Below, piece by piece: positions 1 through 60,241 of a DNA stretch of 64,000 nt. The number at the start of each line of letters is the position of its first letter. The first letter of the stretch is position 1. The translations under genes and the position numbers were made by a program. The notes beneath the pieces were generated by a model. That model was not told the DNA's origin, did not search any database, and saw nothing but the letters and a program-made list of their open reading frames with translations. This DNA is from the human T2T-CHM13v2.0 reference genome, Homo sapiens: NCBI GenBank assembly GCA_009914755.4, contig CP068257.2:6016001-6080000 (forward strand), given 5' to 3'.

Positions 1-100
1 ATTCCATTCCTCTCCATTCCACTCCACTCCACTTCACTCCACTCCACTCCAGTCCACTCCATTCCAATCCATTCCATTCCACTGCATTCCATTCCATTCC

Positions 101-190
101 TTTCTTTCGAGTGTATCTCACTCCGTCACCCAGCCTGGAGAGCAGTGGCACAATCTCAGCTGACATTTCATTTCACCATTCCATTCCATT
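101..190 (-). repeat. Alu 3'-end fragment (type A landmark), minus orientation, embedded in HSat3
   Basis: gagtgtatctcactccgtcacccagcctggagagcagtggcacaatctcagctgac is the reverse complement of the Alu terminal region GAGACGGAGTCTCGCTCTGTCGCCCAGGCTGGAGTGCAGTGGCGCGATCTCGGCTCAC. A tttctttc remnant of the poly-T lies on the left. Confidence 0.8.
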
Positions 191-565
191 CCGTTCCATT
201 CAGTTCCATTCTGCTCTACTCTACTCCACTCCATTGCAATCCATTCACTTCACTCCACTCCATTCCATTCCACTCCACTCCTTTCCCTTCCATCCCATTC
301 CATTGCACTCCTTTCCTCTCCAATCCACTCTACTCCACTCCATTCCATTCCATTGCACTCCATTAGATTGCATTCCTTTCGTTTGACAGGATTTCACTCT
401 GTCACCCAGGCAGGAGTGCAGTGGCACAATCTCACCCCATTTTTCATTTCACCATTCCATTCCTTTCCATTCCACTGCACTCCACTCCAATCCACTGAAT
501 TCCACTCCACTCCACTCCAACCTATTCCATTCCGTGCAATTCCAATCCCTTCCATTCCTCTCCTT

Positions 566-650
566 TCTTTTGACAAGATCTCCCTCTCTCACACAGGGTG
601 TAGCGCAGTGGCACAATCTCAGCACACATTTCTTTTCACGATTCCATTCC
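566..650 (-). repeat. Alu 3'-end fragment (type B landmark) in HSat3
   Basis: ttttgacaagatctccctctctcacacagggtgtagcgcagtggcacaatctcagcacacatttcttttcac. Confidence 0.75.
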
Positions 651-932
651 ACTCCATTTCATTCCTTTCCATTCCGTTTCATTCCATTCCATTCATTTCA
701 ATTGCATTCCATCCCACTCCATTCCATTCCATTCCATTCCACTCCATTCAATTCCATTCCACTCTATTCCATTCCATTCCACTCCACTCCATTCCATTCC
801 ACTCCAATCCATTCCACTCCACTCCTCTCCACTCCACTCCTCTAAACTCCACTCCACTCCATTCCATTCCTTTCCATTCCATTCCATTCCATTCCATTCC
901 ATTCCATTCCATTCCATACCATTCCTTCCCTT

Positions 933-1008
933 TCTTTCCAAAGGATCTCACTCTGTCACAGGGGCTGGAGTGCTGTGGCACAATCTCAGCTCACATTTCT
1001 TTTCACCA
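933..1008 (-). repeat. Alu 3'-end fragment (type C landmark) in HSat3
   Basis: tttccaaaggatctcactctgtcacaggggctggagtgctgtggcacaatctcagctcacatttcttttcacc. Confidence 0.75.
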
Positions 1009-1180
1009 TTCAATTACGTTCCATTCCATCCCATTCCATTCCTCTCTATTTCACTCCACTCCACTCCATTCCACTCCATCCCATTCCAGTCGACTCCATT
1101 GAACTAAACTCCATTCCACTCCACTCAAATCCATTCCATTCCATTCCATAACATTTCACTCCATGGCATTCCATAGCTTC

Positions 1181-1262
1181 CTTTCCACTGTATATCACTT
1201 TGTCACCCAGGCTTGAGTGCAGTGGCACTATCTCAGCTCATATTACATGTCAACTTTCCATT
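1181..1262 (-). repeat. Alu 3'-end fragment (type D landmark) in HSat3
   Basis: ccactgtatatcactttgtcacccaggcttgagtgcagtggcactatctcagctcatattacatgtcaactttccattgc. Confidence 0.75.
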
Positions 1263-1654
1263 GCATTGCATTCTATTCCATTGCATTCAATTGCATTCCA
1301 TTCCTTTCCATTACATCCTTTCCATTCCATTCCTTTCCCTTCCATTCCACTCCGTTCGACTCCACTCCACTCCTCTACATTCCATTACATCTGATTCCAT
1401 TCCACTACATTCCACTCCTCTCCATTCAACTACACTCCACTCCACTCCATTCCACTCCATTCCAATCCATTCCGCTCCATTCCACTGCACTTCCCTCCAC
1501 CCCTCTCCACTCCACTTCATTCCATTCCATTCCATCCCATTCCATTCCCCGCCATTCCACTCCACTCCACTTCTCTCCACTCCACTCCTCTCCAGTTCAC
1601 TCCATTCCACTCCACTCCACTCACTCCACTCCACTGCATTCCATTCCACTCCCT

Positions 1655-3669
1655 TCTTTCGAGAGTATCTCACTCTGTCACCCAGCCCGGAGTGTAGTGG
1701 CACAATCTCAGCACACATTTCATTTCACCATTCCTTTCCATTCTATTCCATTCCATTCCATTCAACTCCACTCCACTCCAATGCATTCCACTCCTCTCCA
1801 TTCCCGTCCATTCCATTCCACTCCTTTCCATTCCACTCCTTTCCACTCCACTTCCCTCCAATCCACTCCATTCCATTCCACTCCATTCTATTCCTTTGTT
1901 TTGATGGGGTCTCACTCTGTCACCCAGGCTGGTGTGCAGTGGCACAATCTCAGCTCATATTTCATTTCACCATTCCACTGCACTCCACTCCACTCCACTC
2001 AATTCCACTCCACTCCACTCCAATCCATTCTTTTCCATTCCATTCCAATCCCTAACATTCCACTCCTTTCTTTTGACAGGATCTTCCTGTGTCACACAGG
2101 CTGTAGCACAGTGGCACAATCTCAGCACACATTTCTTTTCACCATTTGATTCCATTCCATTCCACTCTATTTCTTTCCATTCCAATCCCTTCCACTGCAC
2201 TCCACTCCACTCCACTCCTCTCCATTCCCCTCCACTCCACTCCATTCCACTCCATGCCACTCCATTCCACTCCACTCCACTCCATTCCATTCCACTCTAC
2301 TCCATTCCACTCCACTCCTCTCCATTCCACTCCAATCCATTCCACTCCATTCCACTCCTTGCCACTCCATTCCACTCCACTCCACTCCATTCCATTCCAC
2401 TCTATTCCACTCCACTCCACTCAATGCCACTCCCCTCCACTACACTCCATTCCACTCCACACCTATCCACTCCACTCCACTCCCCTCCACTGCATTATAT
2501 TCTTCTCCACTCCACTCCCCTCCACTACATTATATTCCACTCCATTCCATTCCATTCTTTCTTTCCACAGGATTTCACTCTGTCACAAAACTGGAGTGCA
2601 GTATCACAATTTCAGCTCACATTTCTTTTCACCATTCCATAGTATTCCATTCCATCGCATTCCATTCTACTCTATTTCATTCCACTCCACTCCACTCCAT
2701 TCCGTTCCACTCCACTCCGTTCCATTCCACTCCATCCCATTCCATTGGACTCCACTCCATTCCACCCCATTCCACTCCACTGCATTTCACTCCATTCCAC
2801 TCCATTCCACTCCACTGCACTCCACTCCACCCCACTCCATTCCATTCCACTCCATTCCATTCCATTGCACTCCATTCCATTCCATTCCATTCCACTCCTT
2901 TCCATTCCATTCTACTCCACTCCATTCCGCTCTACTCCACTCAACTCTACTCCTCTCCACTCCACTCCATTCCATTCCATTCCACTCCATTCCATGCCAT
3001 TCCATTCCACTCCACTCCTTTCCATTCCATTCCACTCCACTCCATTCCACTCTACTCCATTCCACTCCACTCCATTCCACTCTACTCCTCTCCACTCCAC
3101 TCCATTCCAGTCCACTCCATTACACTCCACTCCATTCCACTCTATTCCCCTCCACTCCACTCCATTCTATTCCATTCCACTCCATTCCATGCCATTCCAT
3201 TCCACTCCATTCCAGTCCTCTCCATTCCACTCTACTCTATTCCACTGCACTCCACTCCATTCCATTCCATTCTACTCCATTCCATTCCGTTCCTTTATTT
3301 CTACTGGATCTCACTCTATCAACCAGACTGGAGTTCAGTGGCACAATCTTAGATCACATTTCATTTCATCATTCCATTCCATTCCTTTCAATTCTATTCA
3401 GTACAACTCCGTTCCACTCCACTCCACTCCACTTAATTCCATTACATCCGATTCCATTCCACTCCATTCCACTCCTCTCCTCTCCACTGCACTCAACTCC
3501 ATTCCACTCCATCCCATTCCAATCTGCTCCATTCCACTGCAATCCCCTCCACCCCACTCATCTCCATTTCATTCCATTCCATTCCATCCCATTCCAGTCC
3601 ACTCCACTTCACCCCACTCCATTCCACTGCAGTCCACTCCATTCCATTCCACTGCATTAAATTATATTC
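1655..3669 (+). repeat. HSat3 higher-order repeat copy 2 (variant: D landmark absent, extra x-like fragment at about 3,290)
   Basis: Landmarks A 1655, x 1895, B 2065, C 2560, x-like 3290. The x-to-B spacing of about 170 bp is conserved. Confidence 0.6.
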
Positions 3670-5699
3670 CATTCTTTTGAAAGAATCTCACTCTGCCACC
3701 CAGCCTGGAGCACAGTGACACAATCTCGGGTCACATTTCATTTCACGATTCCATTCCATTCCATTCCATTCCACTTCACTCCACTCTTCTCCACTCCACT
3801 CCAATCCACTCCACTCTACTCCACTCCATTCCAGTCCACTCCACTACACTCCATTCCATCCCATGCCATTCCACTCCTTTCAACTGCACTCCACTCCACT
3901 CCATTCCAGTCCACTCCACTACACTCCATTCCATTCCACGCCATTCCACTCCTTTCCACTCCACTCCACTCCACTCCACTCCACTCCATTCCATTCCATT
4001 CCACTCCTTTCTTTTGACAGAATCTCACTCTGTCACCCAGGCTGGTGTGCAGTGGCACAGTTTCATCTCACATTTCACTTCAGCATTCCATTCCATTCCA
4101 TTCTATTCCACTGCACTCCACTGCACTCCACTCCACTCAATTAGACTCCACTCCAGTCCAATTCATTCCATTCCAATCCCTTCAATTCTAAGCCTTTCTT
4201 TCGACAGGATCTCCCTCTGTCACACTGGCTGTAGTGCATTGGCACAGTCTCAGCACACATTTCTTGTCACCATTTCATTCCATTCCGTTCCATTCCATTC
4301 CATTCTATTACACTACATTCCATTCCACTGCATTCCATTCCACTCTACTCCAGTGCACTCTACTCCATTTCATTCCACTACATTCCATTCCACTCTTTTC
4401 CACTCCATTCCAATCTATTCCGTTCCATTCCTCTCCATTCCATTCCACTCCACTCCACTCCATTCCACTCCTCTCCACCCCATTCCTCTCTACTCCACTC
4501 CATTCCACTCCACTCCATTCCATTTCATTCAATTCCACTCCATTCCATTCCCTTCCATTACATTCCATTTGATTGCATTCCACTCCATTCCACTCCATTC
4601 CTCTCCATTCCACTCCACTCTGCTCCGTTCCATACCATTCCATTCCATTCCATTCCTCTCCACCCTATTCCAATCCATTGCATTCCACTCCACTCCACTT
4701 TAATCCACTCCACTCCTCTCCACTCCATTCCATTCCATTTCACTCCATTGCATTCCATTCCTTTCTTTCAACAGGATATCACTGTGTCACCCAGGCTGGA
4801 GTGCAGTGGCACAATCTCTGTTCACATTACATGTCAACTTTCCATTTCACTGCATTCTATTCCATTGCATTCCATTGCTTTCCATTTCATTCCATTCCAG
4901 TCCATTCCATTCCATTCCACTCCACTCCATTCCATTCCATTCCATTCCACGCCACTCCACTCCATTCCATTCCATACCATTCCTTTCCTTTCTTTCCAAA
5001 GGATCTCACTCTGTCACAGAGGCTGCAGTGCAGTGGCACAATCTTAGTTCACATTTCTTTTCATCATTCCTTTGCATTCCATTCAATCCCATTCCATTCC
5101 TCTCTATTTCACTCCACTCCACTCCACTGCATTCCATTCCACTCCATCCCATTCCATTCGACAACATTCCACTAAACTCCACTCCACTCCACTCAACTCC
5201 ATTCCATTCCGTTCCATACCATTTCACTCCATTCCATTCCATAGCTTCTTTTCCACAGGATATCACCGTGTCACCCAGGGTGGAGTGCAGTGACACTATC
5301 TCAGCTCACCTTACATGTCAACTTTCCATTGCTTTGCATTCAATTGCATTCCATTCCATTCCATTCCATTCCATTCCATTCCATTCCACTCCGTTCGACT
5401 CCACTCCTCTCCACTCCTCTACATTCCATTACATCTGATTCCATTCCACTCTATTCCACTCGTCTCCACTCCACTGCACTCCACTCCATTCCACTCCATT
5501 CCACTCCATCCCATTCCATTCCACTCCATTCGACTGCACTCCACTCCACCCCACTCTATTCCTCTTCATTCCATTCCATTCCATCTCATTCCATTACTCT
5601 CCATTCCACTCCACTCCACTTCACTCCACTCCACTCCTCTCCAGTCCACTCCATTCCATTCAATTCCATTCCATTACACTGCATTCCATTCCATTCCTT
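3670..5699 (+). repeat. HSat3 higher-order repeat copy 3 (variant: extra D-type fragment at about 4,760 between B and C)
   Basis: Landmarks A 3670, x 4010, B 4195, D 4760, C 4990, D 5255. Confidence 0.6.
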
Positions 5700-7329
5700 T
5701 CTTTCGAGAGTATCTCACTCTGTCACCCAGCCTGGAGCGTGGTGGCACAATCTCAGCTCATATTACATTTCACCATTCCATTCCATTCTCTTCCTTTCTA
5801 TTCCACACCACTCCACTCCAGTACGTTCCCCTCCACTCCACTCCATTCCAGTCCATTCCAGTCCTTTCCATTCCATCCCATTCCATTCCACTCCTTTCCA
5901 CTCCACTCCCCTCCACTCCACTCCAATCCATTCCATTCCACTCCATTCCATTCCATTGCTTTCTTTTGACAGGACCTCACTCTATCAACCAGGCTGATAT
6001 GCAGTGGCACAATCTCAGCTCACATTTCATTTCACCATTCTACTCCATTCCATTCCATTCTATTCCACTGCACTCCACTCCAGTCAATTCCATTCCACTC
6101 TACTCCAATCAATTCCATTCCATTCCATTCCAATCCCTTCTACTCCACTCATTTCTTTCAACAGGATCTCCCTGTGTCACACATTTCTTTTCACCATTTC
6201 ATTCCATTCCACTCCAGTCCACTCCACTCCATTCCAATCCATGTCAATCCATTCCACTCCACTCCATTCCATTCCACTCTACTTCACTCCAGTCCACTCG
6301 TCTCCATTCCACTCCACTCCACTCCACTGAATTCCACTCCATGCCACTCCATTCCACTCCACTGCATTCCACTGCATGACACTCCATTCCACTCCACTCC
6401 ACTCCATTCCATTCCACTCCACTCCACTCCATTCCATTCCACTCTACTCCACTCCATTCCACTCCACTCAATTCCATTTCACTCCACTCCACTCCATTCC
6501 TCTCCACTCCACTCCACTCCTCTCCACTCCTCTCCACTGCATTCCATTCCACTCCATTCCTCTCCACTCCACTCCTCTCCACTCCACTCCACTGCATTCC
6601 ATTCCACTCCATTCCATTCCATTAATTTCTTTCCACAGGAACTCACTATGTCACAAAGGCTGGAGTGCAGTGGCACAGTCTCAGCTGACATTTCTTTTCA
6701 CCATTCCATTGCATTCCATTCCATCCTATTCCATTCCACTCTATTTCACTCCACCCCACTCCACTCCATTCCTTTCCACTCCTTCCCTTTCCATTCCGCT
6801 CCACTCCACTCCATTCCACTCCGTTGCATTCCATTCATTTCTTTCAACAGGATATCACTGTGTCACCCTGGCTGGAGTGAAGTGGCACAATCTCAGCTCA
6901 CGTTACATGTCATCTTTCCATTGCGTTGCATTCTATTCCATTGCATTCCATTGCATTCCATTGCATTCCATTCCATTCCAGTCCTTTCCATTCTATTCCA
7001 TTCCATTAAATTCCATTCCATTCCATTCTGTTCCACTCCACTCCCCTGCACTGCACTACATTCCATTACACCCGATCCCATTCCACTCCATTCCAGCCCT
7101 CTCCACTCCACTGCACTCCACTCCACTCTATTCCAATCCATCCCATTCCATTCCGCTCCATACCACTGCACTCCACTCCACCCCACTCCACTCCTCTTCA
7201 TTCCATTCCATTCCATCTTTTTCCATTCCTTTCGATTGCACTGTACTCCACTTCACTCCACTCCACTCTGCTCCACTCCACTCCACTCCACTCCAAACCA
7301 TGCCATTCCATTCCACTGCATTCAATTCC
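5700..7329 (+). repeat. HSat3 higher-order repeat copy 4 (about 1.63 kb; A 5700, x 5960, B 6150 partial, C 6625, D 6840)
   Basis: Same A-x-B-C-D order and similar spacings as copy 1. Confidence 0.65.
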
Positions 7330-7838
7330 ATTCCTTTCTTTCGAGAGTATCTCACTCTGTCACCCAGCCTGGAGCACAGTGGCAGAATCTCAGCTCACAT
7401 TTCATTTCACCATTCCATTGCATTCTACTCCATTAAATTCCAATGCACTCCACTCCACTCCAATCCATTCCACTCCACTCCACCCCAGTCCAGTCCACTC
7501 CAGTCCTTTTCTTTCCTTCCCATTCCATTCCACTCCTTTCTACTCCACTCCATTCCACTTCTTTCAATTCCATTACATTCCATTCCACTCCATTCCACTC
7601 CATTCCACTCCATTCCATTCCAGTACTTTCTTTTGACTGTATCTCACTCTGTCACCCAGGCTAGTGTGCAGTGGCACAATCTCAGCCCATAATTTCACCA
7701 TTCCATTCCATTCCATTCCACTGCACTCCACTCCACTCCACTCAATTCCACTTCACTCCACTCCTATCCATTCCATTCCATTCCAATCCCTTCCATTCCA
7801 CTCCTTTATTTCAACAGGGTCTCCATCTGTCACACATG
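7330..7838 (+). repeat. HSat3 higher-order repeat copy 5, truncated (A 7330, x 7625, B 7800 interrupted by beta-satellite)
   Basis: The B-type Alu fragment tttcaacagggtctccatctgtcacaca runs directly into tgatcacccaggtgat… (beta-satellite) at about 7,838. Confidence 0.65.
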
Positions 7839-10800
7839 ATCACCCAGGTGATAGGACTTTTGTCTAGGCTCTGCCTACGGTGGCATTGTGACATATCTCT
7901 TCACTGATCACCCAGGTGATGTAACTCTTGTGTTGGATCTGCCTAGGGGGAATCATGACATATTTCTGCACTGATCACCCAGGTGTTGGGACTCTTGTCT
8001 AGGCTCTGTATATGGGGGATTTGTGACATATCCCTGCACTGATCACCCAGGTGATGTAACGCTTGACTAGGCTGTGAATTCTGGGGCATAGTGACATCAC
8101 TACATTGATCACTGAGATGACGTAACTCTTGTCCAGGCTCTAGCTATAGAAGGCCCAGTGACATATCTCTGCACTGATCATCTACTTGATGTAACTCTTG
8201 GTTACACATTGCCTGCAGAGGCATTGTGAAATATCTCTTTACTGATCAACCAGGTGATCTAAGTCTTGTCTAGGCTCTGCCTACAGGGGGTTTTGTGGCA
8301 TAACCCTGCACTGATCACCCAGGTGATGGGACTCTTCTCTAGGCTCTGCCTATTGGGGGCATTGTCACATATTTCTGCACTGATCACCCAGGTGATGGAC
8401 TCTTGTCTTGGATCTGCCCATGGGGGCATTGTGACATATCTCTGCACTGATCACCCAGGTGATGTAACTCTAGTCTAAGCTCTGCCTAAAGTGGCATTGT
8501 GACAGATCTCTGTACTGATCACTCAGCTGATGTAACTATTGTCTAGGCTCTGCTTAAAGGGGCCTTGTCACATATGTCTACACTGATCACCCAGGTGATG
8601 TAACTGTTGTCTAGGTTCTGCTTACAGAGGATATTGTAACATATCTCTGCACTGATAACGTAAGTGATGTAATACTTGTGTAGGCTCTGCCTACAGGGGC
8701 ATTTTGACATATCTCTGCACTGTTAACCGAGGTGATGTAATTCTTCTCTAGGCTGTGCCCACAGGGGCGTTGAGACATATCTCTGCACTGATCCCAAGGT
8801 GATCCAACTGTTGTCTGGGCTCTGCCTACTGGGGGCATTGTGACATATCTCTGCACTGATCTCCCACGTGATGTAACTTTTATCTAAGCTCGGGCTACAT
8901 GGCATTGTGACATATTACTGCACTGATCACCCAGGTGATATAACCCTTGTCTAGGCTCTGCCTACAGGGGGCTTGTGACACATCTCTGCACTGATCACCC
9001 AGGTGATGTATCTCTTGTCTAGGATCCGCCTACAGGTTGCTTTGTGACATATCCCTGCAATGATCACCCAGGTGATGTACCACTTGTCAAAGCTCTGACT
9101 ACAAGGGGTTTGCTATGTATCTCTGCACTGATAATATAGGTCATGTATCTCTTGTCTAGGCTCTACCTACAGTGGCATTGTGATATATCTCTGCACTGAT
9201 CACCCAGGTGATGGAATCCTTGTCTAGGCTCTGCCAAAATGGGGCATTGTGATATAACTCTGCACTGATCACCCAGGTGATGCGACTCTTGTCTAGGCTC
9301 TGCCTACAGGAGCATTGTGACATATCTCTGCATTGATCACGCAGGTGATGTAACTCTTGTCTATATCTGCCTACTGGTGGCATTGTGGCATATTTCTGCA
9401 CTGATCACCCAGGTGATGGACTCTTGTCTTGGATCTGCCTATGGGGGCATAATGACATATCTCAGCACTGATCACTCATATGATGTAACGCTTGTCTAAG
9501 CTGCGCCAAAAGGGGAATTGTGAAAGATATCTCCACTGATCACCCAGGTGATGTAACAATTTTCTGGTATTTGTCTACAGGGTGCTTTGTGACATATCTT
9601 TGCACTGATCACCCAAGAGATGTAACACTTGTCTAGGCTCGGCCTACAGGGGCTTTGTGACATATGTCTGTACTGATCACCCAGGTGAAGTAACTCTTGT
9701 CTAGGCTCCACCTACAGGGGGTATTGTGACGTATCTCTGCACTGATCACCCAGGTGATGTAACATTTATCTAGGCTCTTCCTACAGGGGCGTTTTGACAT
9801 AGCTCTGCACAGCTCACCTAGGTTATATAACTCTTGTCCACTCTCTGCCTACAGGGGCATTGTGAAACATCTCTGCACTGATCACCCAGGTGATGCGACT
9901 CTTCTCTATACTCTGCCTAGAAGGGGTTTGTGACATACCTCTGCACTGATAACCCAGGTGATGGAAGTCTTGTCTAGGCTCTGTCTATGGGGGCATTGTG
10001 TCAAATATCTGCACTGTTCACCCAGGTGATGTACCTCTTTTCTAGGCTCTGTCTACAGGGATTTTTGTGACATATCACTGCACTGATCACCTAGGCGATA
10101 TAAGCTTTGTATGGGCTTTGCCTACAGAAGGCTTTGTGACATATCTATGCACTGATCTCTGAGGTGACGCAACTCTTGTCTAGGCACTGCCTACAGGGTA
10201 CATTGGTACATAACTCTGCACTGAGCACCCAGGTGATGGACTCTTGTCTGAGATCTGCCTACAGGGACATTGTGATACATCTCTGAACTGATCAACCAAG
10301 TGATGAAACTCATGTCTAGGCTCTGCCTACAGGGGCTTTGTGACACATCTCTACACTGATCACCCTGGGGAAGGAACTCTTGTCTATGCTCTGCCTACAG
10401 GGGACATTGTGGCATATGTCTGCACTGATAACCCAGGTGATGCAACTCTTCTCAATGCTCTGCCTACATTTGGCATTGTGACATATCTCTGCACTGATCA
10501 CCCATTTGATGTAACTCTTTTCTAGTCTCTGCCTACAGAGGGCGTTGTGACATCACTCTGCACGGATCACACGGGTTATTTAACTCTTGTCTAGGCTCTG
10601 CCTACGTGGGCATTGTGACTTATCTCTGCACTGATCACCCAAGAGATGTGTCACTTGTCTAAGCTCTGTGTAGAGGGACATTGGGACATATCTCTGCCCT
10701 GATCGCTGAGGTGATGTAAAATTTGTCTAGGCTTGCCTACAGTGGGATTTATGACGTATCTCTGCACTGATCACCCAGGTGATGTAACTCTTGTCTAGGC

Positions 10801-11689
10801 TCTGCTTACAGGGAGTATTGTGAGATATCTCTGCACTGATCACACAGGTGATGAAACTCTCGTCTAGGCTCTGCCTACAGGGGCTTTGTGACACATCTCT
10901 GCACTGATCACCCTAGGGAGTGAACTCTTGTCTACGCTCTGCCTACAGGAATCTTTATGACTTATACCTGCACTGATAACCTAGGTGATGTAACACTTGT
11001 CTAGGCTCTGCCTACACGGGAATTCTCACATATCTCTGCACTGATCACCCAGGTGATGTAACTCCTGTCTAGTTTCAACCAACGGGAGCGTTTTGACATA
11101 TCTCTGCCCTGATGACCCAGGTGATGTAACCCTTGTCTAAGCTCTGCCTACAGGGGCATTGTATCAGATCTCTCCAATGCTCACCCAGGTGATGTAACAA
11201 TTGTCTGAGCTTTGCCTACAGGGGGCTTTGTGATATACATTTCCACTGATCAAACAGGTGATGTAACCCTTGTCAAGGTTCTGCTTACAGGGGATTTGTG
11301 ACATAGCTCTGCACTGATCACCCCAGGGAGGAAACACTTGTCTGCACTCTTCCTAAAGGAGGATTTACGACTTATCCCTGCACTGATCACTAGGTGATGT
11401 AACACTTGTCTAGGCTCTGTCTACATGGGAATTTTCACATATCTCTACACTAATCCCCTAAGTGATGTAACCCTTGTCTAGGTTCAGCCTACTGGGGATT
11501 TCTGACATACCTATGCACTGATCACTGAGGTGATGTAAATCATTTCCAGGCTTTTTGTACAGGGGACCTTGTGATATATCTCTGCACTGATCACCCAAAT
11601 GATGCAAATCGTCTCTAAGCTCTGCAGGGAGGGGGCATTGTGACATACTTCTGAACCAATCATCCAGGAGATGTAAGTATACTCCAGGC
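7839..11689 (+). repeat. Beta-satellite (68-bp Sau3A family) array, block 1, about 3.85 kb
   Basis: Tandem monomers of roughly 68 bp, about ctgcactgatcacccaggtgatgtaactcttgtctaggctctgcctacagggggcattgtgacatatct, each with a GATC site. The last roughly 800 bp is the conserved tail block also seen before the other D4Z4-like units. Confidence 0.95.
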
Positions 11690-12401
11690 TTTGACTTAAG
11701 AGCATCGCAAGGTGTTGGGAGAGCCTCAGCCGGAATTTCACAGACAGACAAGGACAAAGAGAGGCCAGCGGGCTCCCTTGCACATCAGCCAGGGTGCGCA
11801 ATGAGCGCAGGTTTAGCCAGGAGGCTGGCAAAGAGAGCTAGAAGTCTGCGTTCTGCCGCCAGGCGCTCCAAGGTGGTAGCTGGGAGGCTGCAGGGGCACG
11901 GGCGGGCCGACGACGGTGGCTCAGAGGCGCAGAGGAGGTGAGCCGCCGGAGGCGTGTCAGGCCTGGACGCTGCGTGGGCCCAGTGTTTCACGGGACGGGG
12001 GTCTCCACCCTGCCCAGGGGAGGACGCATTTTCCGTGGATGGGGGGTGGGGGTGTGGGGTGTTGGTCAGGCGGGGTTGGGGTGGTGGAAAGGCATGAGAT
12101 CTCTGCCTGGGCTGCTCCCAAAGCCCAGGCGGCTACCCCACAACACGCACTTGCACAGTAGGCGGCCCACCTGCTGGTACCTGGGCTGGCTCTGGGATCC
12201 CCGGGATGCCCAGGAAAGAATGGCTGTTCTCCACTGTGTGGAGCCTCTTACTGGGCCTAGACCTAGAAGGCAGGAATCCCAGGCCGGTCAGCCCGGTTGT
12301 GGGGGCGGGGGAAGACACAACCCTCCATAACCAGCCAGGTGTTCCCTGGGAAAGAGAGGCCACCGCCCTGCCCCGACCCGACCCCGCCCCAACCCCGCGT
12401 C

Positions 12402-13841
<1,440 letters not shown>

Positions 13842-14462
13842 TCATGAATGGCGGTGAACCCTGGGAATGCCCACCCCACCCCAGAAGGGTTCCAGGGTGT
13901 CGAGGCCTGCGGCCTGGGGGTGGTGGGGGGGGAGGGCGTGGTGATGTCGCTGGTGAGGCCAGAGACACGAAGAGGAAGGGGGTGAGGGGGAAGGGGTGAG
14001 GTGGGCGCATTTCACGGGCTGGCTCTCCGGACCTCTCCAAGAATCCCACGGGAAATGGAAGCCAATCTCTGGGCTCCCACGCGTCTTCAGCAGGGAGAAA
14101 CCGGCCTGGGAGGGTGGAGGGGAGTGTAAACCTTAACCCCCGTGGGAGTCTTGAGTGTTCCAGACCCTCTCTCCGTGAAGGAGGCAGTGCCTGTGGCAGT
14201 CGCCGTTGCCAGGACAGTCTCACACACCCAGGCGTGTGGCTCTCGTTAATTTCCATGTATGAGACCAGAGTGAGACCCCAGAGAGAAGGTGCCTCCCCAG
14301 CGTGATGACCTGACGATGGATTCCCATGTGCGGCAACATGGGGAGTCTGCAGTGTGGCCGGTTTGGAAACTGGCAAGGAGAGCAAAGGCACCATTCGGGT
14401 CTTCCACCCTTCCCTGCATGTTTCCGGGTGCCCGCAGAGCTCTGGGAGCAAACAGTCAGCAT

Positions 14463-17400
14463 GACACATCTCTGAACTGATCAACAAAGTGATGTAACTC
14501 TTGTCTAGGCTCTGCCTACAGGGGCTTTGTGACATATCTCTGCACTGATCACCCAGGTGATGAGACTTTTGTCTAGGCTCTGCCTATGGGGGCATTGTGA
14601 CATATCTCTACACTGAACACCCAGGTGATGTAACTCTTGTGTTGGATCTGCCTATGGGGTCATTGTGACATATTTCTGCACTGATCACCCAGGTGACGGG
14701 ACTCTTATCTAGGCTCTGTGTATGGGGGCTTTGTGACATCTCTGCATTGATCACCCAGGTGATGTAACGCTTGACTAGGCTCTGCCTACGGTTCATAGTC
14801 ACATATCACTGCATTGATCACCGAGGTGATGTAACTCTTGTCCATGCTCTGCCTATAGGGGTCCTTGTGACATATCTCTGCACTGATGATCTACGTGATG
14901 TAACTCTTGCTTATGCTCTGCCTGCAGGGGCATTGTGAAATATCTCTGCACTGATCACCCAGGTGATGGGACTCTTCTCTAGGCTCTGCCTAATGGGGGC
15001 ATTGTCACATATTTCTGCACTGATCACCCAGGTGATGGACTCTTGTCTTGGATTTGCCTATGGGTGCATTGTGACATATCTCTGCACTGATCACCCAGTT
15101 GATGTAACTCTGGTCTAAGCTCTGCCTAAAGGGGCATTGTGACAGATCTCTGCACTAATCACTCAGGTGATGTAACTATTGTCTGGGCTCTGTTTAAAGG
15201 GGCCTTGTCACATATCTCAGCACTGACCACCCAGGTGATGTAACTCTTGTCTAGCCTCTGCTTACAGAGGTTATTGTGACATATCTCTGCACTGGTCACT
15301 TAATTGATGTAACAATTGTGTAGGCTCTGCCTACAGAGGCATTTTGACATCTCTCTGCACTGTTAACCGAGGTGATGTAACTCTTGTCTAGGCTGTGCCC
15401 ACAGGAGTATTGAGGCATATCTCTGCACTGATCCCGAGGTGATCCAACTCTTGCCTGGTCTCTGCCTACTGGGGACATTGTGACATATCGCTGCACTGAT
15501 CTGCCAAGTGTGTAACTTTAGTCTAGCCTCTGGCTACACGGCATTGTGACAGATCTCTGCACTGCTGACCCAGGTGATATAACTCTCGTCTGGGCTCTGC
15601 CTACAGGGGGCTTTTGACATATCTCTGCACTGATCTCCCAGGTGATGTAACTCTTTTCTAGGATCTGCCTACAGGGTGCTTTGTGACATATCCCTACAAT
15701 GATCACCCAGGTGAGGTACCACTTGTCAAGGCTCTGCCTACAGGGACATTGCGATGTGTCTCTGCACTGATCACCTAGGTCATGTAACTCTTGTTTAGGC
15801 TCTGCCTACAGTGGCATTGTGACATATCTCAGCACTGATCATTCAAGTGATGTAACTATTGTCTAGGATCTGCCTAACGGGATTTTGTGACATAACTCTG
15901 CACTGATCATCCAGGTGATGGGACTTTTATCTAGGCTCTGCCTAAGGGGGCATTGTGACATATATCTGCACTGATCACACAGGTGACGGGCCCTTGTCTT
16001 AGATCTGTCTATGAGGGCATAGTGACATATCTCTGCACTGATCACTCATGTGATGTAACGGTTTTTAAGCTGCGCCTAAAGGGGAATTGTGACAGATATC
16101 TCCACTGCTCACCCAGGTTATGTAACAATTTTCTGGGATTTTTCTACAGGGGGCTTTGTGACATATCTCTGCACTGATCACCCAGGTGATGTAACTCTTG
16201 TCTAGGCTCCACCTACAGGGATTATTGTGACGTATCTCTGCTCTGATCACCCAGGTGATGTAACATTTATCTAGGCTCTCCCTACAGGGGCGTTTTGACA
16301 TAGCTGTGCACAGATCAACTAAGTTATGTAACTCTTGTTCACTCTCTGCCTACAGGGGGCATTGTGAAATATCTCTGCACTGATCACCCAGGTGATGGGA
16401 CTCTTCTCTATACTCTGCCTACGGGGGATTTGTGACATATCTCTGCACTGATCACCCAGGTAATGGAAGTCTTGTCTAGGCTCTGTCTATCTTGACATTG
16501 TATCAAATATCTGCACTGATCACCCAGGTGATGTAACTCTTTCCTAGGCTCGGTCTACAGTGATTTTTTTGACATATCACTGCACTGATCGCCTAGGTGA
16601 TGTAAGCCTTGTATGGGCTTTGCCTACAGAAGGCTTTGTGACATATCTCTGCACTGATCTCTGAGGTGATGCAACTCTTGTCTAGGCACTGCCTTCAGGG
16701 TACATTGGTACATATCTCTACACTGATCACCCAGGTGATGGACTGTTGTCTTAGATCTGCCTACATGGACATTGTGACCCATCTCTGACCTGATCAACCA
16801 AGTGATGAAACTCTTGTCTAGGCTCTGCGTACAGGGGCTTTGTGACACATCTCTACACTGATCACCCTGGGGAGGAAACTCTTGGCTACGCTCTGCCTAC
16901 AGGAGGCTTTATGCCTTATACCTGCACTGATAACCTAGGTGATGTAACACTTGTCTAGACTCTGCCTTCACCGGAATTCTCACATATCTCTGCACTGATC
17001 ACACAAGTGATGTAACTCCTATCTAGGTTCAGCCTTCAGGAGCGTTTTGACATATCTCTGCACTGATCACCCAGGTGATGTAACCCTTGTCTAAGCTCTG
17101 CCTACAGGGGCATTGTGACAGATCTCTCCACTGCTCACCCAGGTGATGTAACAACTGTCTGGGCTTTGCCTACAGGGGGCTTTGTGATATACATTTCCAC
17201 TGATCAAACAGGTGATGTAACACTTGTCAAGGTTCTGCTTACAGGGGCTTTGTGACATATCTCTGCTCTGATCAACCTAGGGAGGAAACACTTGACTGCA
17301 CTCTGCATAGAGGGGACTTTACGACTTATCACTGCGCTGATTACAAGGTGATGTAACACTTGTCTAGGCTCTGTCTACACGTTAATTTTCATATATCTCT

Positions 17401-17642: not shown

Positions 17643-20425
<2,783 letters not shown>

Positions 20426-23400
20426 CACACCTCTGAACTGATCAACAAAGTGATGTAACTCTTGTCTAGGCTCTGCCTACAGGGGCTTTGTGACATATCT
20501 CTGCACTGATCACCCAGGTGATGGAACTTTTGTCTGGGCTCTGCCTATGGGGACATTGTGACATATCTCTACACTGATCACCCAGGTGATGTAACTACTG
20601 TGTTGGATCTGCCTATGGGGACATTGTGACATATTTCTTCACTGATCACCCACGTGATGGGACCCTTGTCTAGGCTCTGTGTATGGGGGCATTGTGACAT
20701 ATCTCTGCACAGATCACCCAGGTGATGTAACGCTTTACTAGCCTCTGCCTACGGGGCATAGTGACATATCACTGCATTGATCACCGAGGTGATATAACTC
20801 TTCTCTAGAATCTGACTACAGAGTGCTTTGTGACATATCCCTGCAATGATCACCCAGGTGATATACCACTTGTCAAGGCTCTGCCTACAGGGGCATTGCG
20901 ATGTATCTCTGCACTGATCACCTAGGTCATGTAACTCTTGTCTAGGCTCTGCCTACAGTGGCATTGTGACATATCTCTGCACTGATCACCCAGGTGATGT
21001 AACTCTTTTCCAGGCTCTGAGTATAGGGGGCCTTGTGACATATCTCTGCACTGATCATCTAGGTAAAGTAACTCTTGTCTACCCTCTGCCCAAAGGGGGC
21101 ATTGTGAAATATCTCTGCACTGATCACACAGGTGAAGGGACTCTTCTCTAGGCTCTGCCTACTGGGGGCATTCTCACATATTTCTGAACTGATCACCCAG
21201 GTGACGGACTCTTGTCTTGGATTTGCCTATGGGGGCATTGTGACATATCTCCGCACTGATCACCCAGGTGTTGTAACTCTGGTCTAATCTCTGACTAAAG
21301 GGGCATTGTGACAGATCTCTGCATTGATCACTCAGGTGATGTAACTATTGTCTAGGCTGTGCTTAAAGGGGCCTTGTCACATATCTCTGCACTGATCACC
21401 CAGGTGATGTAACTGTTGCCTAGGCTCTGCTTACAGGGCGTATTTTGACATATCTCTGCACTGATCACCTAAGTGATGTAACACTTGTGTAGGCTCTTCC
21501 TACAGGGGCATTTTGACATATCTCTGCACTGTTAACCGAGGTAATGTAACTCTTGTCTAGGCTGTGCCCACTGGGGGATTGACATATATCTCTGCACTGA
21601 TCCTGAAGTGATCCAACTCTTGCCTGGTCTCTGCCCACTGGGGACATTGTGACATATCTCTGCACTGATCTCCCAGGAGCTATTGCTTTATTCTAGGCTT
21701 TGGCTACACGGCACTGTCACATATCACTGCACTGATCACCCAGATGATATAACTCTTGTCTAGGCTCTGCCAACAGGGGGCTTTTGACATATCTCTGCAC
21801 TTATCACCCAGGTGATATAACTATACTCTAGGATCTGACTACAGGGTGCTTTGTGACATATCCCTGCAATGATCACCCAGGTGATATACCACTTGTCAAG
21901 GCTCTGCCTACAAGGACATTGCGATGTATCTCTGCACTGATCACCTAGGTCATGTAACTATTGTCTAGGCTCTGCCCACACTTGAATTCTCACATATGTC
22001 TGCACTGATTACCCAGTTGATGTAACTCCTGTCTAGGTTCAGCCTACAGGAGCGTTTTGACATATCTCTGCACTGATCATCCCGGTTTTGGGGCATTTTT
22101 CTAGGCTCTGCCTAAGGGGGCATTGTGACATATCTCTGCACTGATCACCCAGGTGATGTTACTGTTGTATAAGCCCTGCCTACAGGGGAATTTTGAGAGA
22201 TATCGCCACTGATCCCCCAACTGATGTAACTATTGTCTAGGCTTTGCCTACAGGGGGCTTTGTGACATAATTTTGCACTGATCACGCAGGTGATGTAACT
22301 CATCTAAGTTCTGCCTACAGGAGCTTTGTCACATATCTCTGCACTGATCACTTTGGTTATGTAACACTTTTGTAAGCACTGCCTAAAGGGAATTTTCACA
22401 AATCTCTGCACTGATCACCTAGGTGATGTAACTCTTGTCTACCATCTGCCCAAAGGGGGCATTATGAAATATCTCTGCACTGATCACTTTGGTGATGTAA
22501 CACTTTTGTAAGCACTGCCTAAAGGGAATTTTCACAAATCTCTGCACTGATCACCTAGGTGATGTAACTCTTGTCTACTATCTGCCCAAAGGGGGCATAT
22601 GAAATATCTCTGCACTGATCACCCAGTTGATTCAACTCTAGTCTAGGATCTGCCTACAGAGGTGTTTTCACATATCCTTGAAGTGATGACAAACGTGATG
22701 TAACTCATGCCTAGACTTTACCTACAGGGGACATTGTGACATATCTCTGCACTGATCACCCAGGAGATGCAACTCTTCTCTCTGCTCTGCCTACAGGGGA
22801 CATTGTGACGTATCTTTGCACTGATAAACCAGGTGGTGTAACACTGGACGAAGCTCAGCCTAAAGGGGCATTGTGAAAAATCTCTGCACTGATCACTCAG
22901 GTGATGTAACTATTGTCTAGGCTATGCTTAAAGGGGCCTTGTCACATATCTCTGCACTGATCACCCAGGTGATGTAACTCTTGTCTAGGCTCTGCTTACA
23001 GGATGTATTGTGACATATCTCTGCAATGATCACCTAAGTGATGTAACACTTGTGTAGGCTCTGCCTACAGGGACATTTTGACATATCTCTGCAGTGTTAA
23101 CCGAGGTGATGTAACCCTTCTCTAGGTTGTGTCCACAGGGGGATTGAGGCATATCTCTGCACTGATTCCTAGGTGATCCAACACTTGCCTGGTATCTGCC
23201 TACTGGGGACATTGTGATATCTCTCTGCACTGATCTCTCAGGTGTTGTAACTTTAGTCTAGGCTCTGCCTACAGGGCATTGTGACATATCACTGCACTTA
23301 TCACCCAGGTGATATAACTCTTGGTTAGGCTCTGCCTACAGTGGCATTGTGACATATCTCTGCACTGATCATCCAGGTGATGTAACTCTTTTCTAGGATC

Positions 23401-27290: not shown

Positions 27291-28000
27291 TTTGACTAAA
27301 GAGCATCGGAAGGTATTGGGAGAGCCTCAGCCGGAATTTCACGGACGGACGAGGGCACAGAGGCCAGCATGCTCCCTTGTACGTCAGCCACAGTGCACAA
27401 TGAGCGCAGGTCTAGCCAGGAGCCCGGCAAAGAGAGCTAGAGGTCTGCGTTCTGCCACCAGGCGCTCCATGGTGGCAGCTGGGAGGCTGCAGGGGCACCA
27501 GAGGGCCAGGGACCGTGGCGCGGAGGTGCAGAGGAGGCGAGCCGCCAGAGGGGTGTCAGGCCCGGACGCTGAGCCGGCCCAGTGTTTCGCGAGACGGGGG
27601 TCTCCACCCAGCCCAGGGGAGGACGCATTTTCCCGGGTTGGTGTGTGGGGATGGGGAGAGTGTGGTCCGGCCGGGTGGGATGGTGGAATGGCATGAGAGC
27701 TCTGCCTGGGCTGCTCCCACAGCCCAGGCGGCTGCCCGCAAACCCACGCATGTGCAGTAGGCAGCCCACCTGCTGGTACCTGGGCCGGCTTTTGATCCCC
27801 GGGATGCCGAGGAAAGAATGGCAGTTCTCCACTGGGTGGAGCGTCTCACCAGGCCTAGACCTAGAAGGCTGGAATCCCATGCCGGTCAGCTCGGTGGAGG
27901 GGTCGAGGGGAAGACGTGCCCCTCCATAGCCAGCCAGGTGTTCCCCGCGAAAGGGAGGCCACCGCCCTGCTCTGACCCGACCCCTTCCCAACCCAGTGAC

Positions 28001-29305
<1,305 letters not shown>

Positions 29306-29401
29306 TCAGAGAGAGTCCGGTAGGCTCCCGTGCACCTCAGCTGGACTGTGCACTGCGGCAAGTGCAGCCAGGAGACCAGCCGGGACAACAAGCCAGCAGT
29401 T

Positions 29402-29410
29402 CTTATAAAG
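29402..29410 (-). promoter_or_regulatory. TATAA-type box upstream of the DUX4-like ATG, unit 3
   Basis: Plus strand tcttataaaggtctgcagg at the homologous position. Confidence 0.3.
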
Positions 29411-30063
29411 GTCTGCAGGCAGGCAGGCTCCACCCCCTGATGAATGGCGGTGAGTCCTGGGACAGACCGCCCCACCCCGGAAGGGTCCCAGGGCGTCCAG
29501 GCCTGTGGCCGGGAGGTGGTGGGGTTGGGGGGAGGGCGTGGTGATGGTGTTGGTGGGGCCGGAGAGACGAAGAGGAAGGGGGCGAGGGGAAAGGGGTGAG
29601 GGGGGAGAGTTTCAGGGGCTGGCTCTCCGGACCACTCCAGGAATCCCGCGGGAACTGGAAGCCACTCTCTGGGCTCCCACATGTCTTCAGCAGGGAGAAA
29701 CCGGCCTGGGAGGGTGGAGGGGAGTGTGGAACTGAACCTCCGTGGGAGTCTTGAGTGTTCCAGGCCCTGTCTCCATGAAGTAGTCAGTGCCTGTGTGTGT
29801 CGCCTTTGCCGGGACAGTCTCACAGGCGCAGGCCTGTGACTCTCGTTCATTTCCACGTAGGAGACCAGAGCGAGACCCCAGAGAGAAGACGCCTCCCCGG
29901 CGTGATGGCCTGACGATGGATTCCCGTGCGTGGCATCATGGGGAGTCTGCAGTGTGGCCGGGTTGGAAACTGGCAAGGAGAGCGAAGTCACCATGTCGGT
30001 CTTCTATCCTTCCCTGCATGTTTCCGGGTGCCCGCAGAGCTCCGGGAGCAAACAGTCAGCATG

Positions 30064-38150: not shown

Positions 38151-38874
38151 CGTTGACTAAAGAGTGTCGGAAGGTATTGGGAGAGCCTCAGCCAGAATTT
38201 CACGGATGGAGACTGGCACAGAGAGGCCAGCGGGCTCCCTTGCACATCAGCCAGTGTGCTCAATGAGTGCAGGTCTAGCCAGGAGGCAGGCAAAGAGAGC
38301 TAGAGTTCTGTGTTCCGCCGCCAGGCGCTCCATGGTGGCAGCTGGGAGGCTGCAGGGGTACGGGTGGGCTGGCAATGGTGGCGCAAAGGCGCAGAAGGAG
38401 CGAGCCGCTGGAGGGGTGTCAGGCCTGGACGCTGCACGTGTCCGGTGTTTCGCGGGACCGGGGTCTCCACCCACCCCAGGGGATGACTCATTTTCCGGGT
38501 GTGGGGTTGAGGGTGGGGATGGTGTGCTCAGCGGGGGTGGGGTGGAGGAAAGGAAGGAGAGCTCTGCATGGGCTGCTCCCACAGCCTAGGCGGCTGTCCG
38601 CAAAACCGCATGTGCGCAGAAGTGGCCCACCTGTTTGTACCTGAGCCGGCTCTGGGATCCGCGGGATGCCCAGTAAAGAATGACAGTTCTCCACTGTGTG
38701 GAGTCTCTCACCGGGCCTAGACCTATAAGGCAGGAATCCCACGGCGGTCAGCCCTGTGGGGGGGGCGGGGTGAAGACACGCCCCTCCATAGCCAGCCAGG
38801 AGTTCCCTGTGAAAGAGAGGCCACCGCCCTGCCCCGAACTGATCAAGTCCAAACCCGGAGTCCTGAAGCTCCTC

Positions 38875-40281
<1,407 letters not shown>

Positions 40282-40662
40282 TCAGCAGGGAGAAACCGGC
40301 CTGGGATGGTGCAGGGGAGGGTGGAACTGAACCTCCGTGGGAGTCTTGAGTGTTCCAGGCCCTCTCTCCGTGAAGGAGGCAGTGCCTGTGGGTGTCGCCA
40401 TTGCCGGGACAGTCTCACACAGGCAAGCGTGTGGCTCTCGTTCATTTCCACATGGGAGAACAGAGCGAGACCCCAGAGAGAAGATGCCTCCCCGGCGTGA
40501 TGGCCTGATGATGGATTCCTTTGTGCGGCAACATGGGGAGTCTGCAGTGTGGCTGGTTTGGAAACGGGTAAGGAGAGCCCATGAACCATGCCGGTCTTCC
40601 ACCCTTCCCTGCATGTTTCCGGGTGCCCGCAGAGCTCCGGGTGCAAACAGTCAGCATAACGC

Positions 40663-42924: not shown

Positions 42925-44360
<1,436 letters not shown>

Positions 44361-48520: not shown

Positions 48521-55668
<7,148 letters not shown>

Positions 55669-58806: not shown

Positions 58807-60241
<1,435 letters not shown>

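What the first reader, a model, noticed from the sequence alone, without database searches (positions are those of the whole stretch)
1..7838. HSat3 array has an ancient higher-order repeat of about 1.55-2.0 kb punctuated by five distinct Alu 3'-end fragments in fixed order
The (CATTC)n array is not homogeneous. About every 170-500 bp it contains a roughly 75-bp block derived from the last roughly 65 bp of an Alu in minus orientation with a poly-T remnant. Five sequence variants (A, x, B, C, D) recur in the same order with similar spacings: A-to-x about 240-340 bp, x-to-B about 170-190, B-to-C about 375-495, C-to-D about 215-265, D-to-A about 445-490. This gives at least four periods of 1.55-2.0 kb. 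One copy lacks D and one has an extra D. This implies a single Alu insertion into HSat3 that was truncated, amplified as a roughly 300-bp sub-repeat, diverged, and was then re-amplified as a pentameric higher-order repeat. The landmarks make this HSat3 subfamily recognisable and could serve as a chromosome- or array-specific marker.
Basis: seen in the sequence. Interest (0 to 1): 0.5.

Follow-up and report, generated by a model that had tools for sequence, protein, structure and literature searches.

The report
Old Alu-tagged repeat in HSat3-type satellite
A 7.8-kb stretch of pentamer (CATTC/CACTC) satellite DNA is built from an old, badly eroded 1.6–2.0-kb repeat unit marked by five recognisable versions of one truncated Alu fragment in a set order, which is a tidy example of a known kind of satellite architecture rather than something new.

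Summary
Window 1–7836 is a CATTC/CACTC pentamer array containing 24 Alu 3'-end blocks: 22 full, one with an internal deletion, and one cut by the beta-satellite junction. All are in minus orientation and all end at the same Alu coordinate (about 224). The order is A-x-B-C-D in 19 of 23 transitions; the maximum in 200,000 shuffles was 15. A-to-A periods are 1553, 2018, 2026 and 1637 bp, and the spacers are periodic too.

The copies are only 73–88% identical, against about 70% for mismatched modules, so this is a relic rather than a homogenised array.

The landmark also occurs in 65 metagenome contigs, presumably human DNA, none identical to the window. They repeat the same cycle and the same "irregularities": the E block, the extra D, the deleted B block, and the broken B block joined to beta satellite. 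The whole superstructure, junction included, therefore predates its spread into many paralogous copies. The landmark marks a multi-copy subfamily, not a single array.

Published work already describes TE fragments within HSat3 repeat units, kilobase-scale "nested tandem repeats", and GGAAT/GGAGT "satellite III group 2". Novelty and interest are low.

The parts
1..7836 (+). Diverged pentamer satellite array (CATTC/CACTC on the + strand, GGAAT/GGAGT on the - strand). It runs off the left edge of the window.
   Evidence: ATTCC 25%, ACTCC 22%, GC skew about -0.7; TRF period 5 across 641-7622
1..100 (+). Tail of a preceding period (end of a D-to-A type spacer), cut by the window edge
   Evidence: 1-925 aligns with 1554-2413 at 80% (lag 1553) and 12-595 with 7246-7836 at 81% (lag 7234), so 1-100 pairs with the stretch just upstream of the A blocks at 1654 and 7335
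101..1653 (+). Period 1 (1553 bp): A x B C D
1654..3671 (+). Period 2 (2018 bp): A x B C E. It has a long ACTCC-rich C-to-E spacer of 739 bp.
3672..5697 (+). Period 3 (2026 bp): A x B D C D, with an extra D between B and C
5698..7334 (+). Period 4 (1637 bp): A x B* C D, where B* carries an internal deletion
7335..7836 (+). Period 5 (partial): A x B, cut within B by the beta-satellite junction
101..164 (-). Alu 3'-end block, type A
377..433 (-). Alu 3'-end block, type x
564..627 (-). Alu 3'-end block, type B
931..994 (-). Alu 3'-end block, type C
1195..1240 (-). Alu 3'-end block, type D
1654..1716 (-). Alu 3'-end block, type A
1895..1957 (-). Alu 3'-end block, type x
2067..2130 (-). Alu 3'-end block, type B
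2555..2620 (-). Alu 3'-end block, type C
3294..3357 (-). Alu 3'-end block, sixth type E, sitting in the D slot. It is a singleton in the window but recurs in at least 9 contigs.
3672..3734 (-). Alu 3'-end block, type A (the most diverged A)
4008..4071 (-). Alu 3'-end block, type x
4195..4258 (-). Alu 3'-end block, type B
4762..4825 (-). Alu 3'-end block, type D (the extra D)
4989..5052 (-). Alu 3'-end block, type C
5246..5309 (-). Alu 3'-end block, type D
5698..5760 (-). Alu 3'-end block, type A
5960..6023 (-). Alu 3'-end block, type x
6151..6194 (-). Type B block with an internal deletion of about 31 bp. The identical deletion junction is present in 13 contigs.
6642..6689 (-). Alu 3'-end block, type C
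6838..6901 (-). Alu 3'-end block, type D
7335..7398 (-). Alu 3'-end block, type A
7627..7689 (-). Alu 3'-end block, type x
7804..7836 (-). Type B block truncated at the junction with beta satellite. Compared with the ancestral junction seen in 14 contigs, the window copy has lost about 80 more bp.
7837..11676 (+). First stretch of the 68-bp beta-satellite array that abuts the pentamer array. This is context, but it belongs to the same duplicated block.

Best explanation
This is a fossil nested tandem repeat, or very diverged higher-order repeat, inside a GGAAT/GGAGT-type satellite III (HSat3-like) array. It is non-coding structural satellite DNA, and no function is implied.

Inferred history:
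1. One Alu inserted into the pentamer array in minus orientation. Either it was 5'-truncated on insertion or it was later cut down to its last 65 bp or so plus the tail.
2. The fragment and its adjacent pentamers were amplified as a short sub-repeat of about 170-300 bp. The copies diverged into types A/x, B/C, D and E.
3. A block of five sub-repeats (A-x-B-C-D, about 1.55-1.65 kb) was amplified in tandem by unequal crossing-over. Pentamer expansions and unequal exchanges produced the 2.0-kb variants A x B C E and A x B D C D.
4. The array was broken inside a B block and joined to beta satellite.
5. The whole segment was copied to many other genomic places.
6. The window's copy then lost about 80 bp at the junction.

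Steps 1, 3, 4 and 5 rest on direct sequence comparison. Steps 2 and 6, and the mechanisms themselves (retrotransposition, unequal crossing-over, segmental duplication), are inferred from established knowledge of satellite evolution.
For: - Single origin. All 22 full blocks end at Alu position 224-225, lie in the same orientation and share a flank of the form ATTTC(A/T)TTTCACC.
- Types. Unsupervised clustering yields A, x, B, C, D and E, and at four clusters the types pair as A+x and B+C.
- Cyclic order. 19 of 23 transitions are canonical, a score reached by 0 of 200,000 shuffles.
- Spacers are homologous in register. D-A, x-B and C-D spacers are reciprocal best matches, and the k-mer periodicity survives masking of the Alu blocks.
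- Identity. In-register modules are 73-88% identical, against 69.6 +/- 3.5% for mismatched modules.
- Independent copies. 65 contigs carry the landmark and show the transitions Ax 91, DA 60, xB 58, CD 51 and BC 29, with the same spacings. Four contigs with two exact A landmarks give A-to-A distances of 1552-1622 bp.
- Superstructure is older than its dispersal. Each window period has position-specific partners at 91-95%, against about 80% between periods. The deleted B block is shared by 13 contigs, the broken-B/beta-satellite junction by 14, and the E block and the B-D-C-D arrangement recur.
Against: - Bootstrap support for the individual block clades is modest (18-78%) because the blocks are only about 80 bp long.
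- Period-to-period identity is only a few to about 18 points above the pentamer background, so the fine alignment of spacers is uncertain.
- Only 4.5 periods are visible, and they vary in length by 30%.
- The contigs are short-read metagenome assemblies of a repeat. Some arrangements, such as L055, could be assembly collapses.
Confidence: 0.85

Rival explanations
1. The periodicity comes from a patchwork of a few large duplications, for example one of about 4.05 kb covering two periods plus one or two of about 1.6 kb. On this view there was no iterated tandem amplification of a five-block unit, and calling it a HOR overstates the regularity.
For: The sharpest k-mer offset peak is at 4.0-4.1 kb. 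The best self-alignment is 777-3586 against 4840-7622 at 78.6%. The C..D module of that pair is the most similar of all, at 87.8%. Only 4.5 periods are visible and their lengths vary.
Against: All adjacent periods are in register and in the same cyclic order. If neighbouring offset bins are summed, the peaks at 1.5-1.7, 1.9-2.2, 3.4-3.7 and 5.4-5.8 kb are comparable to the one at 4.0-4.1 kb, which is sharp mainly because that alignment has few indels. Other module pairs at other lags reach 80-83%. Contigs show 1.55-1.62-kb A-to-A units. The difference from the main explanation is partly semantic, because tandem duplication by unequal exchange is how such repeats grow.
Confidence: 0.1
2. The blocks are independent Alu insertions into a preferred target in the pentamer array.
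For: Alu elements do insert into satellites, and L1 endonuclease has target preferences.
Against: All 24 blocks share the same 5' truncation point, orientation and flanking sequence. They also share diagnostic substitutions by type in cyclic order, and the spacers between them are homologous as well.
Confidence: 0.01
3. The blocks are not Alu-derived. They would be a native satellite motif that resembles the Alu 3' end by chance, or a fragment derived directly from 7SL.
For: No Rfam hit. The Alu consensus used was recalled from memory.
Against: There are 22 BLAST matches with E-values down to 6e-12 over about 65 bp, all collinear with the Alu 3' end followed by a T-rich tail remnant. The differences from the consensus are mostly the CG>CA/TG changes expected of an old methylated Alu, as seen directly. 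As far as I recall the 7SL sequence, the stretch GAGATTGTGCCACTGCAC fits Alu rather than 7SL, which has an insertion there. No tool tested this.
Confidence: 0.02
4. The pattern is an assembly artefact, meaning a mis-assembled or artificially expanded repeat in the source assembly.
For: Satellite regions are prone to mis-assembly.
Against: Copies differ by 12-27%, which is far too much for assembler confusion. The same order, spacings and idiosyncratic deletions appear in dozens of independently assembled contigs.
Confidence: 0.02

Closest known systems
Nested tandem repeats (NTRs) or higher-order units in HSat2/HSat3 arrays, e.g. the 3.6-kb DYZ1 unit on Yq and the 1.77-kb HSat2 unit on chr1 (Altemose et al., bioRxiv 10.1101/2021.07.12.452052; PMC4022460; Warburton 2008, PMC2588610)
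   Same: Kilobase-scale units are superimposed on a diverged (CATTC)n base. [quoted passage not shown]
   Different: Here the unit copies are only 73-88% identical, so this is a relic. The unit is itself made of five to six recognisable sub-repeats, each tagged by the same Alu fragment. I found no published description of this specific five-block unit in the papers I could read.
Satellite III 'group 2' of the acrocentric short arms and 1q12 (pTRS-47, pE-2, pR-1, pR-2, pR-4; Choo 1990; Bandyopadhyay 2001, as summarised in PMC6862356), and the 7,571-bp 'GAATG/GAGTG' array at 1q12 listed by Warburton 2008 (PMC2588610)
   Same: The array is a mixed GGAAT + GGAGT pentamer composition (25% and 22% here). 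It is of similar size (at least 7.8 kb) and flanks heterochromatin. It adjoins an LSAU/beta-satellite composite, as HSat3 does at 1q12 in the CHM13 cenSat table.
   Different: The clone sequences and genome coordinates could not be compared here. The published pTRS-47 unit is 1366 bp, whereas the periods here are 1.55-2.03 kb. Identity with the 1q12 array is a lead, not a test.
HSat1B / DYZ2 (2.47-kb unit containing one Alu fragment per repeat; Frommer 1984, cited)
   Same: A classical satellite whose repeat unit carries an Alu fragment that was amplified passively along with the satellite.
   Different: HSat1B has an AT-rich base sequence rather than a pentamer one, and one Alu fragment per unit rather than five diverged copies of one fragment.
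Alpha-satellite higher-order repeats
   Same: Diverged sub-repeats of common origin occur in a fixed cyclic order. Exact deletions and extra monomers serve as structural variants.
   Different: Alpha-satellite monomers have a uniform length of about 171 bp, and active HOR copies are 95-100% identical. Here the sub-repeats range from 170 to 740 bp and the copies are 73-88% identical.
LSAU-BETA composite (Hoyt et al., bioRxiv 10.1101/2021.07.12.451456; Altemose cenSat annotation)
   Same: The flank from 7837 to 64000 is 68-bp beta satellite with repeated GC-rich elements of about 2.9 kb that are 85-87% identical. That matches the reported 80-95% intra-array identity in centromere-transition regions. 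An inversion is present, as reported for beta-satellite arrays.
   Different: This is the neighbouring sequence, not the finding itself. LSAU identity was not tested against a reference sequence.

Membership tests
HSat3 / satellite III | Derived from a (CATTC)n/(GGAAT)n pentamer array | tested here: met
   TRF finds period 5 over 641-7622. ATTCC makes up 25% and ACTCC 22% of rotation-collapsed 5-mers.
HSat3 / satellite III | Occasional interspersed 10-11-bp motif (CAACCCGAGT / ATGTCGGGTTG type, Table S2) | tested here: not met
   No hits at <=1 mismatch in 1-7838. The motif is described as occasional, so its absence in 7.8 kb weakens membership without excluding it.
HSat3 subfamilies A1-A6 and B1-B5 (Altemose 2014) | Presence of subfamily-specific 24-mers | tested here: inconclusive
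   None of the 14 Table 1 24-mers occurs exactly in the window. The nearest are A2 (one hit at 1 mismatch) and A4. In 189 kb of related contigs, A2 and A4 have 19 and 16 one-mismatch hits. Only the single top 24-mer per subfamily was available.
Satellite III group 2 (pTRS-47 family) | Mixed GGAAT and GGAGT motifs | tested here: met
   One search gives the composition. The definition is taken from PMC6862356 and PMC2588610.
Satellite III group 2 (pTRS-47 family) | Sequence identity to the reference clones, and location on the acrocentric short arms or 1q12 | not testable with these tools
   Neither the clone sequences nor a human genome is available here. Choo 1990 and Jarmuz 2007 are not held.
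Higher-order repeat / nested tandem repeat | Head-to-tail periodicity above the base repeat | tested here: met
   Offset peaks at about 1.6, 2.0, 3.6, 4.05, 5.6 and 7.2 kb, also with the Alu blocks masked, and in-register self-alignments.
Higher-order repeat / nested tandem repeat | Distinct sub-repeat types in a fixed cyclic order | tested here: met
   19 of 23 canonical transitions, reached by 0 of 200,000 shuffles, and replicated in 65 contigs.
Higher-order repeat / nested tandem repeat | High identity between unit copies (homogenisation, typically >=95%) | tested here: not met
   73-88% between periods. It works like a HOR in origin but is no longer homogenised.
Alu-derived sequence | Significant collinear similarity to the Alu consensus 3' end plus a tail remnant | tested here: met
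   22 hits to Alu positions 224-289, E-values from 4e-4 to 6e-12. The consensus was recalled from memory.
Alu-derived sequence | Recognition by a curated model (7SL/SRP clan in Rfam) | tested here: inconclusive
   No Rfam match at E<=1. The fragment is short, 25% diverged and covers only the end of the element.
Beta satellite (flank) | 68-bp tandem unit matching the published consensus | tested here: met
   TRF finds period 68 over 7837-11676. Its consensus is the reverse complement and rotation of the 68-mer in Altemose Table S2.

The most novel reading that the evidence does not exclude
The Alu-tagged GGAAT/GGAGT array is an un-named HSat3 subfamily: it matches none of the 14 published subfamily marker 24-mers. 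Its single fixed break point with beta satellite records one ancestral HSat3/beta-satellite fusion, later spread with the LSAU/beta-satellite composite across 1q12 and the acrocentric short arms. Its position-specific landmarks (A1-A5, the E block, the deleted B, the junction deletion) would then serve as a ready-made character set for reconstructing the order and direction of exchanges among those chromosome arms.
Probability: 0.3. Interest if true: 0.35.

Novelty: new member of a known kind. Interest (0 to 1): 0.2.

Why it matters
The practical value is modest. The block types, the E block, the deleted B block and the junction give exact, easily searched landmarks in sequence that is otherwise very hard to align. 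They could help anchor reads, check assemblies and trace how HSat3/beta-satellite/LSAU segments were copied between pericentromeric and acrocentric regions. The finding does not change the understanding of satellite biology. TE fragments inside HSat3 units, kilobase-scale nested repeats and GGAAT/GGAGT satellite III are all already described.

Tried and rejected
- HSAT5 as the name for this sequence. Rejected: HSat5 is a 14-15-bp repeat, AGGGCCTCACTGACC.
- Assignment to an Altemose 2014 subfamily using the Table 1 24-mers. No exact hits in the window and only stray hits in the contigs, so this is inconclusive.
- Rfam search of 1-8000 for an SRP/Alu-related model. No hit, which is uninformative.
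- Using a published Alu primer string as an independent anchor. The string CAGGCTGGAGTGCAGTGG occurs in 71 papers, but the one I opened does not call it Alu. Not used as evidence.
- Scan of genome contigs for the landmark. No hits.
- Reading Choo 1990, Jarmuz 2007 and the Science version of Altemose. None is held.
- A distinct higher level of organisation at 4.05 kb. Considered because that is the sharpest k-mer peak. Rejected as a separate level because the summed neighbouring bins at other lags are comparable and module identities overlap.
- A loose pattern search for the E block (<=4 mismatches). It also hit A and x blocks and was discarded.
- ORFs in the GC-rich inserts. No Pfam domains.


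Full report
**What is there.** Window 1-7836 is a diverged pentamer satellite. On the + strand it reads CATTC/CACTC, with ATTCC making up 25% and ACTCC 22% of rotation-collapsed 5-mers. GC skew is about -0.7. CpG is depleted (51 observed, 192 expected). At 7836/7837 it meets a 68-bp beta-satellite array (the consensus agrees with the published 68-mer). That array continues to the end of the window and is interrupted by repeated GC-rich elements of about 2.9 kb.

**The Alu blocks.** All are in minus orientation and all stop at Alu position 224-225. E-values range from 4e-4 to 6e-12, mostly 3e-7 or better, and there are no hits elsewhere in the 64 kb.
- Two more blocks are partial. One has an internal deletion (6151-6194) and one is cut by the junction (7804-7836).
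- The shared truncation point, orientation and flank (ATTTC(A/T)TTTCACC) show that all the blocks descend from one truncated Alu. This rules out independent insertions.
- Most differences from the consensus are CG>CA/TG changes, as expected for an old methylated element (read directly).
- Rfam gave no hit. For a 65-nt fragment that is 25% diverged, this is uninformative.

**Types and order.** Bootstrap support is only 18-78% because the blocks are short.
- The order is A x B C D | A x B C E | A x B D C D | A x B* C D | A x B(cut).
- That is 19 of 23 canonical transitions. In 200,000 shuffles the mean was 4.4 and the maximum 15.

**Periodicity beyond the Alu blocks.** Offsets of shared rare 14-mers peak at about 1.6, 1.9-2.1, 3.5-3.6, 4.0-4.1, 5.5-5.7 and 7.2 kb. 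The peaks remain when the Alu blocks are masked.
- Spacers of the same position are reciprocal best matches (D-A, x-B, C-D). The spacer after E best matches the D-A spacers, which places E in the D slot.
- In-register modules are 73-88% identical, against 69.6 +/- 3.5% (maximum 76.5%) for mismatched modules.
- Out-of-register pentamer stretches align at about 72-75%.
- The repeat is therefore real but old and eroded. The sharp 4.05-kb peak reflects a long alignment with few indels (777-3586 against 4840-7622, 78.6%) rather than a clearly separate level of organisation.

**Related sequences elsewhere.** The 27-nt A landmark gave no hits in the bacterial/archaeal genome collection and 65 hits among metagenome contigs. 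These are presumably human DNA in host-associated samples, but I could not verify that.
- None is identical to the window. The best is 96%, and many are 82-91%.
- Among themselves they are mostly 93-99.5% identical, and only 3 of 65 have a partner at 99.5% or above. They therefore represent many paralogous copies, not one locus sampled repeatedly.
- Annotated with the window's block types, they show the same cycle (Ax 91, DA 60, xB 58, CD 51, BC 29 transitions) and the same spacings. Four contigs with two exact A landmarks have A-to-A distances of 1552-1622 bp.

**The irregularities are inherited.**
- The E block recurs in at least nine contigs as C->E about 756 bp and E->A about 378 bp, and the B-D-C-D arrangement recurs too.
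- The exact deletion junction of the B block at 6150 is present in 13 contigs.
- Fourteen contigs share one ancestral junction, in which a B block is broken at ...GGCTGTAGTGCAG|GTGATGAG... and continues into beta satellite. The window's junction is that same junction with about 80 further bp deleted.
- A-centred 590-bp segments of each window period cluster with position-specific contig partners at 91-95%, whereas the window's periods are only about 80% identical to each other.
- It follows that the amplification of the five-block unit, its variants and the join to beta satellite all predate the spread of the whole segment into many copies.
- A second group of contigs, 72-77% identical to the window, carries the same Alu sub-repeat in a different long-range order. 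The landmark therefore marks a subfamily rather than one array.

**Most likely history.**
1. One Alu inserted into the pentamer array and was reduced to its last 65 bp or so.
2. It was amplified with neighbouring pentamers as a short sub-repeat and diverged into types.
3. A five-block unit was amplified by unequal crossing-over, with pentamer expansion and unequal exchange producing the 2.0-kb variants.
4. The array broke within a B block and was joined to beta satellite.
5. The whole segment dispersed by duplication.
6. Small deletions then occurred locally.

The comparisons above support the order of events directly. The mechanisms are inferred from established models of satellite evolution. 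No function is implied.

**Comparison with what is known.**
[quoted passage not shown] They name the kilobase-scale HSat2/3 units nested tandem repeats.
- Their CHM13 annotation shows HSat3 (A4/B3/A2) directly flanking an LSAU-BSAT composite at 1q12.
- Acrocentric satellite III is defined by mixed GGAAT/GGAGT motifs, with a 'group 2' comprising pTRS-47, pE-2, pR-1, pR-2 and pR-4.
- Warburton et al. list a 7,571-bp GAATG/GAGTG array at 1q12 and assign it to that group. The window's array matches in composition, size class and neighbourhood, but neither the clone sequences nor a human genome could be compared here.
- None of the 14 published subfamily marker 24-mers occurs in the window, and the classical HSat3 10/11-mer is absent.
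- HSat5 was considered and rejected.

**Verdict.**
- there is a sixth block type;
- the irregularities are inherited rather than local;
- the repeat is a relic rather than an active HOR;
- the landmark is specific to a subfamily, not to one array;
- the array is part of a larger duplicated HSat3/beta-satellite block.

It is a well-resolved example of a known kind of structure. Novelty and interest are low, with some practical value as an alignment and phylogenetic marker set.

Noticed in passing
window 7837-64000: Beta satellite (68 bp) is interrupted by a repeated GC-rich element of about 2.9 kb. Full copies lie at 11700-14600, 17654-20561, 27301-30199, 42216-45124 and 58103-61005, all 85-87% identical. 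Another copy at 38167-40795 has an internal deletion. This looks like the LSAU-BETA composite. ORFs in the element have no Pfam domain.
   Followed up: partly
window about 48500-57900: The beta-satellite orientation flips to the minus strand between about 48.7 and 57.8 kb. This segment contains an inverted copy of the GC-rich element (55656-52754), and an inverted 446-bp fragment of the element (48969-48524) lies at the left breakpoint. This is an inversion inside the composite array.
   Followed up: partly
window 7826-7845, compared with L006, L009, L025-L028, L040, L055, L062, L064 and others: The window's HSat3/beta-satellite junction lacks about 80 bp that are present in all 14 junction-bearing contigs: the rest of the B block up to GTAGTGCAG, plus the first beta-satellite monomer. 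No contig carries the window's derived junction.
   Followed up: yes
L005, L008, L016, L022, L041, L045, L047, L057, L059, L060, L065: A second group of contigs, only 72-77% identical to the window, carries the same Alu-fragment sub-repeat in a different long-range order, roughly x A x C D A x B C B A. This suggests a sister array type with its own unit.
   Followed up: partly
L055 compared with window 2555-4989: L055 goes from an A2-like period straight into the A4-like period. It lacks the E-A3-x-B-D stretch (about 2.4 kb) present in the window and, in overlapping parts, in L007, L023 and L053. This is either a real unequal-crossover variant between C blocks or a short-read assembly collapse.
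   Followed up: no
window 1-7836 compared with all 65 contigs: No contig matches the window above 96%, although the contigs form tight clusters among themselves. The window's copy is either a rarer diverged paralogue or comes from a different genome or species than the contig sources. The species of origin could not be established.
   Followed up: partly
window 2150-3290: The long B-to-C and C-to-E spacers of period 2 are almost pure ACTCC/ATTCC. They have local sub-periodicities of about 105, 160 and 225 bp; for example, 2632-3068 aligns with 2857-3288 at 81.7%. This suggests local pentamer-block expansion, which would explain the 2.0-kb period length.
   Followed up: no
L013, L006, L049, L059: A few contigs contain an exact marker 24-mer of another HSat3 subfamily: A6 in L013, B4 in L006 and L049, B5 in L059. 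This hints that arrays of this type abut or intergrade with other HSat3 subfamilies.
   Followed up: no
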